Positions 41,754 through 50,255 of a stretch of 64,000 nucleotides of DNA are shown piece by piece. Both the position numbers and the translations under genes were made by a program. The DNA is from Candidatus Thorarchaeota archaeon (GTDB lineage: Archaea > Asgardarchaeota > Thorarchaeia > Thorarchaeales > Thorarchaeaceae). The notes under the pieces are model-generated. The model was not told the origin of the DNA. It did no database searches and saw nothing but the letters and a program-made list of their open reading frames with translations. The stretch's first letter is position 1. The number at the start of each line of letters is the position of its first letter. The stretch lies in assembly GCA_963726195.1 (NCBI GenBank), contig CAVSBO010000004.1, positions 1 through 64,000 of the forward strand. Direction: 5' to 3'.

Positions 41754-43590
41754 ATGAAACTACCTACTTTTGACAGAAATCAGAAAGCGCTGTTCTTCTG
41801 TCTGTTTTGTGTCCTCTCTTTCGCGCTCATCGCCCACTACACGCAGAACAACTTCGGCACCATCAACATTAGCACAGTAAACATTGTTGATGAGAACGGG
41901 CAGTCAATAACAATGCAGATTTGGCGCCCCGCGGCTGCCACATCAAGTTCCCCGGCCCCCGCTGTTCTGTTGTTGCATGGCATGAATAACGACAAGGAGA
42001 CAGAAGCTACAGTAGCACTGGAACTAGCAAGGCGAGGATTCGTAGCAGTCAGCCTTGACCAGCTGAGTCACGGCGATTCTGGTCCAGTTAGCAATCCTCT
42101 ATTTCTTCTAGGTGCGTCCAACTACACACTCGGTGCTAATTCTGCATACCAGTACATGAAGAGCCTAGCTTTTGTTGACAACACAGAGATGGGAGTCGTG
42201 GGTCATTCGATGGGCGGGATGACAGCCAGAGTGGTTGCTATGATGAATCCAGACCATCGTGCGATAGTCATTCAGGCCGGTGGTCCGGACAACCTGACGC
42301 TGTACCCCGGCTTCCACAACTACCTGAATGTCTGGCCCTATTATGAGGAGCTCTTCACAGTCGCTCCAAGGGCTGTGTTCATGAACGAGAGCCTTCTGAT
42401 GGTAGGCTACAATGAACATCTAGGAACAGGAGTTATGGGAGCATATGACCACACATATGGTACATTCGCAAATGGCACAGCACACAGGTGCGCTCTTTGC
42501 CCCTGCACTCATCCTGGTTCAACATGGAACTCTAAGGCAGTAACAGAAGTCGTCGCTTGGATGTTTCAGGCTCTTTCAGGGTATTCTGAATCTGCGGCCC
42601 TGGCTGCGTCTGTTACTACTCAGACATACATGATAGTTCAGTACTCAGAGCTTGGCGCTCTCATCATGTCTGTCATTTCTCTGATACCCTTGACCGCCAT
42701 TCTTCTGAACGTGCCCTACTTTGGAATGGTGAAGACTTCCCTTCCGACGAAGGTATCGCTTACTGGCTTCAATTGGTGGAAGTACGCCTCACTCAATACT
42801 CTGATAGGTGGAGTCACATTCGTCGTTCTGCCCATGGTTGGGCTTCTAGGCGGGGCGGTTTTGGGCATTTTCGCTCCAATCTTCCTACTGGCGACTGCAA
42901 ACGGGTCTGTTCTTTGGCTGTTGGCGAACTTCCTGATTGCATGGCTGTTCTACAGGGAGTGGTACAAGAAACAGAGCACAGAGAATGGACTTACCCAGAC
43001 CGACGTCGGTCGCGTCGAGAGCATCAAGAACCCGGAGGGTCGTGAGATCGTATTCAGGACGATTGTCCTCGGGACACTCATGTTTGCATTCCTGTACGCG
43101 ATCGTGACCCTTTCAGTGTCCTATCTCGGGGTTGAGTTCCGTTACATGTGGCCAACATTCAAGGAGTTCACCCCACTCAGGTTCGGTCAGTTCTTGCTGT
43201 ACCTCATCCCGGTCTTGCCGTTCTTCCTCTTGAACGGGGGCACGTTGCTCTTCGGGATGCTGCGTCAGAATGAGACGAAGTGGCCGATCATCACACAGTT
43301 TGTGTGGTGGCTGAAGGGCCTCTTTGCAATGGAGGCCGGCCTGCTTGTAGTCTTCCTTGTGCAGTACTTGCCAATGTACACCTTGGGTACAGGTCCTATC
43401 ATAAGCTCAGCCTTAGGGATCGTATTCGGGCTGTATGGCGTGTTCTTAATGCAGATACTGCCTTGGTTCGCAGGCATGTTCTTCCTCAGCTACGGCACTC
43501 TACCGGATGACGGGGAGAATCTATCTTGGCACCATAATGGTCACCATACTCACCGTCTGGTGGATGGCAGTCAGCTCAATGCTGGTATAG
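41754..43590 (+). CDS. Membrane-bound alpha/beta-fold hydrolase; probable frameshift near 43490 (annotated ORF runs to 43604)
   Basis: PAVLLLHG, ELARRGFV..LD..HGDS, nucleophile GHSMGG, multi-TM C-terminal half; shifted tail LYRMTGRIYLG. Confidence 0.85.
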
Positions 43591-43610: not shown

Positions 43611-43655
43611 CGCGGGTCGGACAGGTTCCGATCCGCGCCTGCTTTCTTTTGCTTT
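43611..43655 (+). terminator. Hairpin plus T tract after the hydrolase gene
   Basis: CGCGGGTCGGA-CAGGT-TCCGATCCGCG followed by CCTGCTTTCTTTTGCTTT. Confidence 0.6.
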
Positions 43656-43670
43656 CCAATGGTTGTTCAT

Positions 43671-43899
43671 AGAGGAACGCGGCGAGGAGACCCCCAACTT
43701 CAGTCGGGGGTGGAAACGCCGCCGCGGGATATACGAGTTTAAATGTGAGCTTGAAAAGTGAAGAGTCGTATCCGACCGTGGCAATGCTGTGGTCGGAAGG
43801 GCGCATGTCAACCGCCCGAATGTCGCACGAAATGACGAGGTAGAGTTCCTACCGCGGATCGCAGTGGCAAGCCTACGACTTTAGTCGCAGGTAGTTGAC
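43671..43899 (+). mobile_element. Non-autonomous IS200/IS605-family derivative (MITE/PATE-like); no tnpA and no intact tnpB
   Basis: Left-end hairpin ACCCCCAACT-TC-AGTCGGGGGT (43690-43711); right-end hairpin GCCTACGACT-TT-AGTCGCAGGT followed by AGTTGAC (43871-43899); residual TnpB-like C-terminal peptide GRAHVNRPNVA...ASLRL*. Confidence 0.8.
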
Positions 43900-43919
43900 C
43901 TCAGTCGATTCCAGAAGAA
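43766..43919 (+). ncRNA. Putative TnpB omega-RNA (reRNA) scaffold plus flanking guide
   Basis: Stem 43771-43797; GGGCG/CGCCC stem whose loop GTCAAC (43807-43812) is complementary to terminal GTTGAC (43894-43899); TGTCGC/GTGGCA and GGTAG/CTACC stems; right-end hairpin. Boundaries are inferred. Confidence 0.55.
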
Positions 43920-45064: not shown

Positions 45065-45986
45065 TTGATTGAAATTGAGAATCTGACTAGGAAGTTTGGT
45101 GATCTTACTGCGGTTGACAATCTCACATTGCATGTTGATGAGGGCGAGGTTTTCGGTTTCTTGGGACCGAACGGTGCAGGAAAGACCACTACCGTGAGGA
45201 TGCTTTGCTGCTTGATATCAAGGACCAGCGGCAAGGCTACGATAGGTGGTTTTGATATCAGTAACAAGGCTGACCAGCAGAAGATTAGAAGGATGGTCGG
45301 ATTGTTGACTGAAAACCCCGGTCTGTATGATAGCCTTAGTGCATACCAGAACCTAGATTTCTATGGTCGCCTGTACAAGATCCCTGAACAGCAGAGAAAA
45401 GAGAGAATAGATTACTTTCTCAAAATGCTTGAGCTCCAAGAGAAGAAGGACGTTGCTGCAGGAACATTCTCGAAAGGCATGAAACAGAAGCTGGCGATAG
45501 CTCGTGCCCTGATTCATGATCCTCAGGTTCTGTTCCTTGACGAACCAACGGCAAGTTTGGACCCAGAGGCCTCGAAGACTGTAAGGGACTTTATCCTTGA
45601 ACTGAAGAAAGAGAAGCGTACCATCTTTCTCAACACCCACCTTCTGGACGAAGCACAGAAAATCTGTGATAGAGTCGGGATACTGAAGACAAAGCTGAAT
45701 AGCTGTGGGCTCTCCGCAAGAGCTCGGACGGCCGCTTTTTGCGCGGAAGATTGTGGTTCAACTCGACCGTGTTAACGATGCAATTGTGGCGGCTGTGAAG
45801 AGAGTCGAGCCGGGCAAGATTGAGGTAGCTGGTAATCAGATTACCATCGAGGTCACTAACCCCGAAACGGAGAATCCTACCATAATCGACGCAATTAGAG
45901 CAGCTGGCGGACGAATCCAGTTTGTCAACGAACTTACTCCTAGTTTGGAGGATACTTATCTGAAATTGATCAGGGGTGGAAAATAA
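45065..45986 (+). CDS. ABC transporter ATP-binding protein; frameshift near 45700
   Basis: GPNGAGKTT, FSKGMKQK, LFLDEPT, H-loop NTHLL, C-terminal PSLEDTYL. Confidence 0.92.
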
Positions 45987-45988
45987 GA

Positions 45989-46724
45989 ATGGACCTAGGA
46001 ATCTCGTGGACAATCACGAAGAAAGACTTCAGCACATTTAGGAAACACAAGTACATTATCTACACATTGGTTCTTGTTCCACTCTTAATATCGATTCTCC
46101 TGCCCACAGTTATGTGGTACGTGCTTCAGAGGGGCGGGCCTCAGTCGTTAATCGTCCCGCAGCTGCTGGACGCATTTTCCTTCATCTTCGTTATATTGCC
46201 GGGCATTATACCGGCGACTATTGGTTCTTACAGCATCGTGGGCGAAAAGGTCGAGAAAAGTCTAGAACCACTTCTGGCGACACCAATAACCGACGGTGAG
46301 CTCTTGCTGGGAAAGGCGATCGCAGGTTTCCTGCCCACTCTGTTATCTACGTGGGGGGACTGTGGTATTCATGACCCTACAGGACGTGATAACTTACAAT
46401 CGGGTCTTCGATTATCTGTATTTTCCGAACTGGAACGTCGCAATCGTTCTATTGCTTGCCGTTCCACTCGTGTGCGCTCTGAGCGTTGGTCTGAACGTAG
46501 TCATCTCTTCCAGAACTAGCGACATAAGGACTGCTCAGCAGCTGGGATACGCTCTGCTTATCCCTTTTTTGGCTGTCTACATCTTGTTCGAAACCGGTAT
46601 CATTACATACGACCAAGACAGCTTGCTAATGATTTCGGGCATTTGCTTGATACTGGTCCTGCTCGTGATGTTCTTAGCCCGAGCCGTATTCCGCAGGGAA
46701 GAGATACTCACAAAATGGAAGTAA
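45989..46724 (+). CDS. ABC-2 type transporter permease; frameshift near 46355
   Basis: SYSIVGEKVEKSLEPLLATPITDGELLLGK, ISSRTSDIRTAQQ, FRREEILTKWK. Confidence 0.88.
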
Positions 46725-48426: not shown

Positions 48427-48705
48427 GCTCTCAGTAGGCTTTGCACGGAATTGACTCTCGCGCGTTCCATTCTTCGCAGTGGGCAATACTCTGGAGTTGC
48501 CAGAATAGGGAAATACAATGGAACCTACATGCTCAGATGCCGCATACCTCACTCCTGCCATCGGCTTGGCAGGATGCCCCATAAGCGTTCCGGTCTGAGG
48601 GTGTTATACTGATACAGATAGCGTATAGCTTGTCAGGACAGAAGTGCTGGACAGAACACTCAAATCACTATGTCGCTAGCGCGAGCACACTAGGTGAAAC
48701 ATTCC

Positions 48706-50255
48706 ATGCCAGATGACAGGTTTGGGCAACTTCAGAAGAAACGAGACGAACCAAACTCGGCGGCGAGGACCGATCAAAACAACATGAGGCCGGAAAGTAT
48801 ACAGCACGAGAGCGAATTGAGAAGCTGCTTGACCCGGGTTCTTTCGTCGAGTTTGACGAGTTCGTCGTTCATCGATGAAACTGACTTTGGACATGGACAA
48901 GAAGAAGATACTCGGCGACGGCGTCATCACCGGATGCGGCACAATCGACGGCCGAAAGGTGTTCATCTTCAGTCAGGACTTCACGGTCTTTGGCGGTTCG
49001 CTGTCTGAGATGTATGGGCTCAAAATATGCAAAGTCATGGATATGGCAATGGCAGACGGGAGCGCCCATGATAGGGCTAAATGATCGGCGCAGGTGCGCA
49101 GAGTCCAAGAGGGTCGTCAAAGTCTGCTGGCCTCGTATGCGTGTATTTTCCTCAGAAACACCCTATGCAGTGGCGTAATTCCCCAAATCTCGGCTATCAT
49201 GGGTCCTTGTGCAGGAGGAGCCGTTTACAGCCCCGCGGTGACCGATTTCACGCTTATGGTAAAGAACACATCCCACATGTTCATCACCGGCCCGGATGTT
49301 ATCAAGACGGTCACAGGCGAGGAGGTCACGATGGAGGAGCTGGGCGGTGCAATGACCCACAACTCGATTTCGGGTGTCGCCAGTTTTGCCAGTGAGAATG
49401 AGGAAGAGTGCTTTGCTCAAATACGGAAGCTCCTGAGCTATATGCCAAGCAATAATCTTGAGGAGCCGCCTCGCGTCAGCACGGGTCACGCACCTGATAA
49501 TGTCGATATGTCCGTTGACGAAGTTGTGCCTGATGATCCCAACAAACCATACGACATGCGCGATGTAGTCACAAAGGTAGTCGACAATGGTGAGTTCTTT
49601 GAGGTCCACGAGCACTGGGCGAAGAACATGATCGTGGGCTTTGCTCGCTTCGATGGTCGCTCAGTAGGCATTGTCGGGAACCAGCCCGCTCATCTTGCCG
49701 GAACCATTGACATCGATGCCTCGGACAAGTGCGCTCGATTTGTCAGGTTCTGTGACGCGTTCAACATCCCTCTCATTACGTTCATGGACGTGCCAGGTTA
49801 TCTCCCGGGGACAACACAGGAGTGGGGAGGAATAATCCGGCATGGTGCGAAGATTCTCTACGCCTTCAGTGAGGCAACAGTTCCCAAAATCACGATCATT
49901 ACTCGTAAGGCCTACGGCGGCGCGTATGACGTGATGAGCAGCAAGCACATCGGGGCTGACCTTGGTTTACGCTTGGCCGACCTCAGAGATTGCCGTAATG
50001 GGTCCGGACGGTGCGATCAACATCATCTTCAGAAAGGAGATTGATGAGGCCAAGAACAAGGAGAAGCGACGTGCTGAGCTCGTGAAGGAGTATCGCGACA
50101 AGTTCGCGAACCCTTACATTGCTGCGGAACTTGGCTACATTGACAAGGTGATTTTCCCTCACGAGACTCGGCCACTAATCTGTAAGGGACTGGAAATGCT
50201 TGCCAGCAAGAGGCAGAGCAGGCCGCCCAAGAAGCATGGCAACATCCCGCTATAG
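48706..50255 (+). CDS. pccB: Acyl-CoA (propionyl/methylmalonyl-CoA) carboxyltransferase beta subunit; multiple indels in the 5' part and one near 49962
   Basis: [103 protein letters not shown]. Confidence 0.9.

What the first reader, a model, noticed from the sequence alone, without database searches (positions are those of the whole stretch)
43666..43919. Mini IS200/IS605 element reduced to ends, a promoter and an apparently intact TnpB omega-RNA: a candidate stand-alone guide-RNA cassette
Seen in sequence: a ~230 bp intergenic element has a left-end hairpin (43690-43711) and a right-end hairpin ending in GTTGAC (43899). tnpA and almost all of tnpB are missing; only the C-terminal peptide GRAHVNRPNVA...ASLRL* remains. 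The retained part folds into stem 43771-43797, then a GGGCG/CGCCC hairpin whose loop GTCAAC can pair with the terminal GTTGAC as a pseudoknot, then nested TGTCGC/GTGGCA and GGTAG/CTACC stems. A TATA-like TTTAAA (43738-43743) lies about 25-30 nt before the first stem. TTCAT (43666-43670) abuts the left end. Established: TnpB omega/reRNAs overlap the tnpB 3' end and the right end, carry a 3' pseudoknot, and take their guide from the DNA flanking the right end. Inference: the deletion spared the RNA scaffold and placed it behind a promoter. The element could express an RNA with guide CTCAGTCGATTCCAGAAGAA for a TnpB encoded elsewhere, with TTCAT as candidate TAM, protecting its own insertion site or serving a domesticated role. 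Guide cassettes of this kind in a probable Asgard archaeon are not something I can place in a described system.
Basis: partly seen in the sequence, partly recalled or inferred. Interest (0 to 1): 0.75.

Follow-up and report, generated by a model that had tools for sequence, protein, structure and literature searches.

The report
Gene-less TnpB guide-RNA mini-transposon (PATE)
This 229-base stretch is one of seven protein-less miniature copies of an IS605 jumping element in an Asgard archaeon; each keeps the element's ends, its promoter box and the folded guide-RNA scaffold, so it probably borrows the DNA-cutting TnpB enzyme from full-size copies in the same genome, a kind of element already described.

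Summary
Window 43671-43899 is a 229-bp protein-less IS605 derivative in a probable Thorarchaeote. The genome holds 7 such minis (89-95% identical to each other) and 4 tnpB-only copies with the same ends and intact catalytic motifs, but no detectable TnpA. Autonomous tnpA+tnpB relatives exist in other metagenomes. Contigs of related strains join 43670 to 43900 exactly, which fixes the ends, leaves TTCAT outside and shows no target duplication. The fold and pseudoknot hold across 22 sequences (11 compensatory pairs). TTTAAA is the inherited tnpB promoter box. Among the minis the scaffold varies far less than the spacer (13/102 vs 24/54 columns), but 11 of 13 variable columns are third codon positions, so exchange with tnpB copies confounds that signal. 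Best reading: a selfish PATE whose RNA is loaded by TnpB in trans to guard its own site. Expression and cleavage are untested. The claim that it fits no described system is wrong: omega-RNA-bearing PATEs and stand-alone omega-RNAs are published, and this scan has noted similar elements in other genomes, several of them Asgard. Nothing supports domestication. New member of a known kind.

The parts
43611..43657 (+). Host terminator-like hairpin plus T-run upstream of the insertion (not part of the element); makes read-through into the element less likely
   Evidence: (hairpin 43611-43637) and sequence; function inferred
43666..43670 (+). Target / transposon-adjacent motif TTCAT, outside the element; predicted TnpB TAM
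   Evidence: TTCAT before 6 of 7 minis (CTCAT once), 2 of 4 tnpB-only copies (others TTGAT, TTCAC) and both autonomous elements; stays in the empty site. Use as TAM is inferred.
43671..43899 (+). The whole mini-element (PATE), 229 bp
   Evidence: sibling alignment; empty-site joint skipping exactly 229 bases
43687..43690 (+). Left DNA guide GAGA at the foot of the hairpin; fits cleavage site TCAT by the IS608/ISDra2 pairing rule
43691..43710 (+). Left-end subterminal hairpin (TnpA binding site); in autonomous relatives it overlaps the last tnpA codons on the opposite strand
43738..43743 (+). TTTAAA, inherited tnpB promoter (TATA) box; predicted start near 43767-43770
   Evidence: invariant in 7 minis; TTTAAG 31 nt before the ATG in resident tnpB copies, and TTTAAA 31 nt before it in autonomous L047. 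Activity not shown.
43744..43769 (+). 26-nt spacer shared by all minis and not matching the resident tnpB copies; its last 9 nt resemble the codons after RuvC-III; most variable part
   Evidence: 13 of 26 columns variable; alignments
43770..43899 (+). omega-RNA scaffold, 130 nt (former tnpB 3' end plus right end)
   Evidence: alignment A1, pair counts, model R1 hits all 11 genome copies at 139-153 bits
43771..43797 (+). Stem-loop 1 (12 pairs, G-U rich)
   Evidence: 100% of cells paired; C-G to A-U change in 7 relatives
43799..43817 (+). Pseudoknot-forming hairpin; loop GTCAAC 43807-43812
   Evidence: G-C to C-G in 2 relatives; pseudoknot helix 99.2% paired with one A-U to G-C change on both sides in the C5 tnpB copy
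43821..43869 (+). Nested stem domain, including GGTAG/CTACC (43839-43853)
   Evidence: helices 4 and 5 (92% and 85% paired)
43868..43871 (+). Right DNA guide CAAG; fits the terminal TGAC by the same pairing rule
   Evidence: invariant in 22 sequences; rule from established knowledge
43872..43891 (+). Right-end subterminal hairpin (DNA hairpin for TnpA and last RNA stem)
   Evidence: 5 pairs with changes on both sides
43894..43899 (+). Terminal GTTGAC: pseudoknot partner and right cleavage site
43771..43884 (+). Relic of the TnpB C-terminal reading frame (37 codons plus stop); no conserved start, stop codon upstream
   Evidence: matches the C-termini of the four resident TnpBs
43900..43919 (+). 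Predicted guide: host flank that follows TTCAT in the empty site; in this copy it can fold back on the terminal GTTGAC (7-bp hairpin)
   Evidence: guide length inferred

Best explanation
It is a non-autonomous IS605 derivative (a PATE) that has dropped both genes and keeps what must act in cis: two TnpA-recognised ends, the tnpB promoter box and the omega-RNA scaffold. Shown: it inserted 3' of TTCAT without duplication, has six siblings, and four intact tnpB copies with a near-identical scaffold sit in the same genome. Inferred: (1) it moved by Y1 TnpA peel-and-paste supplied in trans by an autonomous IS605 that is now lost or unassembled; (2) the TATA box starts a transcript of about 150 nt near 43768 that runs into the host flank; (3) TnpB from the four tnpB-only copies binds it and cuts TTCAT+guide, a sequence present only in an element-free copy of this site; (4) repair from an occupied chromosome copy restores or spreads the element. 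The scaffold is kept compatible with the resident TnpB by selection on the RNA and/or gene conversion with tnpB copies. The role is selfish, not a host function.
For: 7 minis and 4 tnpB-only copies share ends. TnpB motifs GVDRG, LEDL and HADLNAA plus the zinc finger are intact, NF040570 157 bits over a cut-off of 100. Autonomous relatives carry a divergent Y1 tnpA, TnpB 79-81% identical, the same type of ends and TTCAT. Exact empty site in two runs of one study. Fold and pseudoknot covary. TATA invariant; scaffold 13/102 vs middle 24/54 variable columns, Fisher P = 2e-5; stem-breaking changes 2 vs 5.7 expected, P = 0.013. No TCAT+guide match within 3 mismatches anywhere in the assembly for the ten guides tested, as expected if the only target is the empty site. 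Published mechanism and precedent.
Against: No RNA data, so expression is not shown. No TnpA in the assembly (88.9% complete), so the element may be immobile now. 11 of 13 variable scaffold columns in the minis are third codon positions of the old tnpB frame (P = 2e-4), 6 share the minor allele with resident tnpB copies, and 37 of 78 informative site pairs are incompatible: the conservation may be imported from coding copies rather than selected in the minis. In this copy the guide can pair with the terminal GTTGAC and compete with the pseudoknot. The empty allele lies in strains about 91% identical, so it shows a polymorphism, not an excision event.
Confidence: 0.7

Rival explanations
1. An inert or passive PATE: a mobile DNA parasite of TnpA only. 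The scaffold is carried along and refreshed by gene conversion with tnpB copies, but the mini's RNA is not made or not used.
For: Third-position bias and alleles shared with coding copies; no TnpA found; guide fold-back in this copy.
Against: The deletion spared the whole 130-nt scaffold and left it 27 nt behind an invariant TATA box although only the end hairpins are needed for transposition. Changes private to the minis are few and mostly unpaired or pair-preserving. A second, unrelated TnpB family in this genome appears to show the same layout.
Confidence: 0.22
2. A domesticated guide cassette: the host uses these RNAs with TnpB for defence or gene regulation.
For: One Halobacterium PATE RNA improved growth when overexpressed (PMC4615843). 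Several sibling guides lie 3-4 nt from neighbouring reading frames, where they could affect expression. The genome has 35 TnpB-type zinc-finger hits and no Y1 TnpA.
Against: The site is empty in related strains and other copies lie at other flanks. No match to the element in 60 related genomes by DNA search or a convincing one in 86 by the RNA model (incomplete genomes). Guides are unrelated host flanks with no second target in the genome or in viral contigs. The TnpBs keep their catalytic residues and transposon ends.
Confidence: 0.05
3. A TnpB sponge: RNAs from the minis titrate TnpB and dampen the activity of the full-size copies.
For: Minis outnumber tnpB copies 7 to 4 and have a dedicated promoter position. 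Inference only.
Against: A loaded guide would still protect the mini's own site, so the selfish model explains the same facts more simply. No direct evidence.
Confidence: 0.03

Closest known systems
PATEs (palindrome-associated transposable elements), homogeneous type, of Haloquadratum walsbyi (Dyall-Smith 2011, PMC3119063)
   Same: No terminal inverted repeats, palindromes near both ends, no target duplication, too short for a transposase, multicopy at about 90% identity, strain-specific insertion, ends shared with IS605-type transposons; HqIRS71 likewise keeps C-terminal coding remnants.
   Different: Host is a probable Thorarchaeote; here the retained part is a complete omega-RNA scaffold placed behind the tnpB promoter box, which that paper did not assess.
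omega-RNA-encoding PATE-like elements of Geobacillus stearothermophilus ISGst1-5 (Meers 2023, 10.1101/2023.03.14.532601)
   Same: Protein-less IS200/IS605 minis beside tnpB-only copies with the same ends; proposed to be mobilised by TnpA and served by TnpB in trans; TnpB cuts the empty donor joint to retain the element.
   Different: That genome has a tnpA; none was found here. Different TnpB family, TTCAT motif and archaeal TATA-type promoter.
Stand-alone omega-RNAs of OMEGA systems (Altae-Tran 2021, as summarised in PMC10691335)
   Same: Mobilised, effector-less omega-RNA loci in genomes that also hold effector-containing loci; shown there to work in trans.
   Different: Trans activity is not tested for this element.
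Archaeal sotRNAs and the PATE-derived RNA VNG_R0052 of Halobacterium salinarum; P. abyssi intergenic repeats (Gomes-Filho 2015, PMC4615843)
   Same: Archaeal RNAs from IS1341 tnpB 3' ends, including an expressed PATE.
   Different: VNG_R0052 is a 99-nt fusion of end sequences; this element keeps a full 130-nt scaffold and a TATA box. No Rfam family matched.

Membership tests
PATE (IS605-derived, Dyall-Smith 2011) | Near-terminal palindromes, no terminal inverted repeats | tested here: met
   hairpins at 43691-43710 and 43872-43891; ends AGAGG... and ...GTTGAC are not inverted repeats
PATE (IS605-derived, Dyall-Smith 2011) | No target-site duplication; insertion 3' of a 4-5 nt motif | tested here: met
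   empty-site joint skips 229 bases with 0 ambiguous letters; TTCAT in 6 of 7 minis
PATE (IS605-derived, Dyall-Smith 2011) | Too short to encode a transposase; no intact gene | tested here: met
   229 bp; six-frame translation shows only relics
PATE (IS605-derived, Dyall-Smith 2011) | Ends shared with IS605-type transposons | tested here: met
   four tnpB-only copies and autonomous L047/L048/L051
PATE (IS605-derived, Dyall-Smith 2011) | Multicopy with strain-specific insertions | tested here: met
   7 copies; empty site and new flanks in related strains
PATE (IS605-derived, Dyall-Smith 2011) | Mobilised by a Y1 TnpA in trans | tested here: inconclusive
   no TnpA in this 88.9% complete assembly; TnpA with related ends exists in other metagenomes; excision not assayed
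TnpB omega-RNA (reRNA) | Overlaps tnpB 3' end and right end; guide lies just outside | tested here: met
   scaffold 89-94% identical to the 3' ends of four resident tnpB genes; boundary at GTTGAC
TnpB omega-RNA (reRNA) | Consecutive stem-loops and a pseudoknot with the scaffold 3' end | tested here: met
   94.9% of cells paired, 11 pairs with changes on both sides, one of them in the pseudoknot; feature as described in 10.1101/2023.11.20.567912
TnpB omega-RNA (reRNA) | Expressed as a discrete small RNA | not testable with these tools
   no RNA holder listed
Stand-alone omega-RNA acting in trans | A compatible effector encoded elsewhere in the genome | tested here: met
   four TnpB genes of 386-399 aa with intact catalytic motifs and the same scaffold
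Stand-alone omega-RNA acting in trans | Binding and TAM-dependent cleavage by that effector | not testable with these tools
   needs a bench assay
Domesticated TnpB guide system (host function) | Fixed locus, conserved guide, a target other than the donor joint | tested here: not met
   site empty in related strains; guides differ between copies; no second target found

The most novel reading that the evidence does not exclude
In a genome that may have lost its Y1 transposase, self-promoted omega-RNA minis persist purely as TnpB-guided homing cassettes, their scaffolds kept current by gene conversion with tnpB copies, and a second TnpB family in the same genome has done the same independently; some guides that abut neighbouring genes may have been co-opted by the host as regulators.
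Probability: 0.1. Interest if true: 0.6.

Novelty: new member of a known kind. Interest (0 to 1): 0.3.

Why it matters
The class is known, but the role of stand-alone omega-RNAs is described as unknown (PMC10691335) and the trans model for PATEs is a proposal (Meers 2023). This locus is an unusually complete test case: exact ends from an empty allele, a predicted TAM (TTCAT), a minimal natural 130-nt scaffold with its own promoter box, four cognate TnpBs and related TnpAs are all in hand. It also gives a ready guide design for an uncharacterised Asgard TnpB family of about 385 aa. The third-position signal warns that scaffold conservation in such minis need not prove RNA function.

Tried and rejected
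Rfam scan: nothing near a gathering score. DNA search of 60 related genomes: no match outside this genome. RNA model over 86 genomes of the class: two weak hits (31.6 and 24.5 bits), not followed. Both are 'not found in those searched', which are incomplete assemblies. Exact 27-nt empty-site pattern in JGI metagenomes: 0; the read-laying tool found the empty site instead. Sequencing runs: no RNA holder listed, which says nothing on expression. Scaffold and TAM+guide patterns in viral contigs: 0. TnpA in own genome by Pfam and by tblastn with the two related TnpAs: only the overlap with the left-end hairpin; I rejected the idea that the middle of the mini derives from tnpA, since only the last 8 residues match well. 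A small translated peptide as the cause of the third-position bias was rejected: there is an upstream stop, no ATG, and a GTG start in only 3 of 7 minis. A simple deletion of one of the four resident tnpB copies does not explain the 26-nt spacer; its origin stays open. A genome-wide count of TATA positions before ATG codons gave only a broad excess, no sharp peak, and was not used. The sigma-70 promoter scan does not apply to an archaeon. The orthologous site could not be recovered from the three same-genus genomes.

Full report
1. Observation. The stretch folds better than shuffles (z = -2.45). No Rfam family matches. The element lies between genes, just after a terminator-like hairpin and T-run. 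The host's ribosomal protein L3 has its closest named match, at 79%, in a Thorarchaeota archaeon, so 'probable Asgard' is right.

2. A family in this genome. BLASTN finds seven minis of 227-231 bp, 89-95% identical to each other, and four elements of about 1.27 kb that carry only tnpB between the same ends. A covariance model finds the same eleven and no more (150 candidates scored). The four TnpBs (386-399 aa) keep the GVDRG, LEDL and HADLNAA motifs and the zinc finger; one scores 157 bits on NF040570, cut-off 100. TTCAT precedes six minis and two tnpB copies; CTCAT, TTGAT and TTCAC occur once each. The 4-nt DNA guides GAGA and CAAG fit the cleavage sites TCAT and TGAC under the IS608/ISDra2 pairing rule (established knowledge; the left one was also raised by note e1-5629830). 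No Y1 transposase is detectable in the 88.9% complete assembly. Autonomous IS605 elements with a divergent tnpA (NF033573), a TnpB 79-81% identical, the same type of ends and TTCAT occur in other metagenomes.

3. Empty site. Contigs of two peat metagenome runs from one study join 43670 directly to 43900, skipping 229 bases with no ambiguous letters. This fixes both ends, leaves TTCAT outside and excludes a duplication. The bridging contig in X1 differs from the window at 27 of about 297 positions, so it is a related strain: a presence/absence polymorphism, not a caught excision. Loose ends in the same runs show the element at flanks known from this genome and at new ones.

4. The promoter. The resident tnpB copies have TTTAAG 31 nt before the ATG, autonomous L047 has TTTAAA at the same distance, and TTTAAA precedes tnpB in nearly all other relatives fetched. 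So the box is the element's own tnpB promoter. In the minis it sits 27 nt before the first stem, which would start an RNA at the scaffold's 5' edge (inference from archaeal TATA spacing). The 26-nt spacer is shared by all minis and does not match the resident tnpB copies, pointing to one old origin.

5. The RNA. Over 22 distinct sequences the proposed 48 pairs are formed in 94.9% of cells; 11 pairs change on both sides, 0 of 500 shuffles reach this, and slid controls pair 32-52%. Compensatory changes lie in stem 1, the pseudoknot hairpin, the pseudoknot itself (GTCGAC on both sides in the C5 tnpB copy) and the inner stem. Five of the eleven are in the right-end hairpin, which is also a DNA signal, and related sequences inflate the shuffle control. 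The layout agrees with the described TnpB omega-RNA with its 3' pseudoknot (10.1101/2023.11.20.567912).

6. Is the RNA selected in the minis themselves? The scaffold has 13 variable columns of 102 against 24 of 54 in the non-scaffold middle (P = 2e-5), the TATA box 0 of 6, and only 2 of 14 changes break a pair against 5.7 expected (P = 0.013). However, 11 of the 13 variable columns are third positions of the old tnpB frame (P = 2e-4), six carry alleles also seen in resident tnpB copies, and 37 of 78 informative site pairs are incompatible with one tree. In non-coding elements this points to sequence exchange with the coding copies. The conservation is therefore real, but it does not prove that the minis' RNA works. 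In this copy the first 11 guide bases can also pair with the terminal AGTTGAC and compete with the pseudoknot.

7. Targets. None of the ten guides tested occurs after TCAT in the assembly within three mismatches over 16 nt, and this copy's TAM+guide has no exact match in viral contigs. The only known target is the element-free site.

8. Mechanism. Most likely (0.7) a selfish cassette: moved by TnpA in trans, transcribed from the inherited promoter, loaded on TnpB from the four tnpB-only copies, cutting element-free copies of its own site so that repair restores it, as shown for ISGst elements (10.1101/2023.03.14.532601). Identity as a scaffold-bearing PATE is shown (about 0.95); transcription, loading and cleavage are inferred. 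Rivals: passive PATE refreshed by gene conversion (0.22), host domestication (0.05), TnpB sponge (0.03).

9. Comparison. It meets every testable defining feature of a homogeneous PATE (PMC3119063). Meers et al. state that PATEs often encode omega-RNAs that need TnpB in trans; stand-alone omega-RNAs shown to work in trans are summarised in PMC10691335; an archaeal PATE RNA was shown to be expressed (PMC4615843). Unchecked notes of this scan report similar elements in other genomes, several of them Asgard; these are not counted as evidence.

10. Verdict. Real, cleanly delimited, and a new member of a known kind. Interest 0.3. Its value is as a complete, testable example, plus two side observations: the gene-conversion signal, and a second mini-element family of about 17 copies tied to another TnpB family in the same genome.

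Noticed in passing
G000 C3:337130 (-), C4:88316 (+), C4:111819 (+), C5:38234 (+) and about 13 more, all outside the window: A second family of about 17 gene-less repeats of roughly 190 bp. They share the 3' end (TGTCCAACTT twice, then AATGAACGG) with the five-member large-TnpB family, carry TTGGACA-type repeats at the other end (IS607-like by resemblance, untested), and many have an AT-rich box about 27 nt before a conserved hairpin: apparently the same promoter-plus-scaffold layout arisen independently. A matching left end was not found upstream of the large tnpB genes.
   Followed up: partly
window 43487-43488: All four runs lack one base here. Removing it gives the upstream membrane hydrolase-like ORF (from 41754) a hydrophobic C-terminus, 611 aa. 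Together with split ORFs at 45065-45986, 45989-46724 and 48694-50255, this suggests indel errors in the assembly.
   Followed up: partly
whole genome G000: 35 hits to the TnpB zinc-finger family PF07282 in about 11 clusters, yet no Y1 transposase.
   Followed up: partly
G000 C5:117685 (-), C8:97702 (-), C18:28925 (+): Two sibling minis end 3-4 nt from neighbouring reading frames (one sense, one antisense), and one lies about 150 bp upstream of the ribosomal protein L3 gene; they could affect host expression.
   Followed up: no
G000 C5:38278-39550 (-): This tnpB copy has GTCGAC in both pseudoknot strands, a compensatory change, but its terminal CGAC no longer fits the CAAG DNA guide, so it may be immobile; it ends about 40 bp from a member of the second repeat family.
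   Followed up: partly
L028:2501-2917: In a Promethearchaeota genome a 5'-truncated copy keeps only the last third of tnpB and an intact scaffold with compensatory changes.
   Followed up: no
L045:2541-2670: The scaffold of this tnpB element from another metagenome is closer to the minis (2-4 differences from the nearest) than any resident tnpB copy is, hinting at a missing parent.
   Followed up: partly
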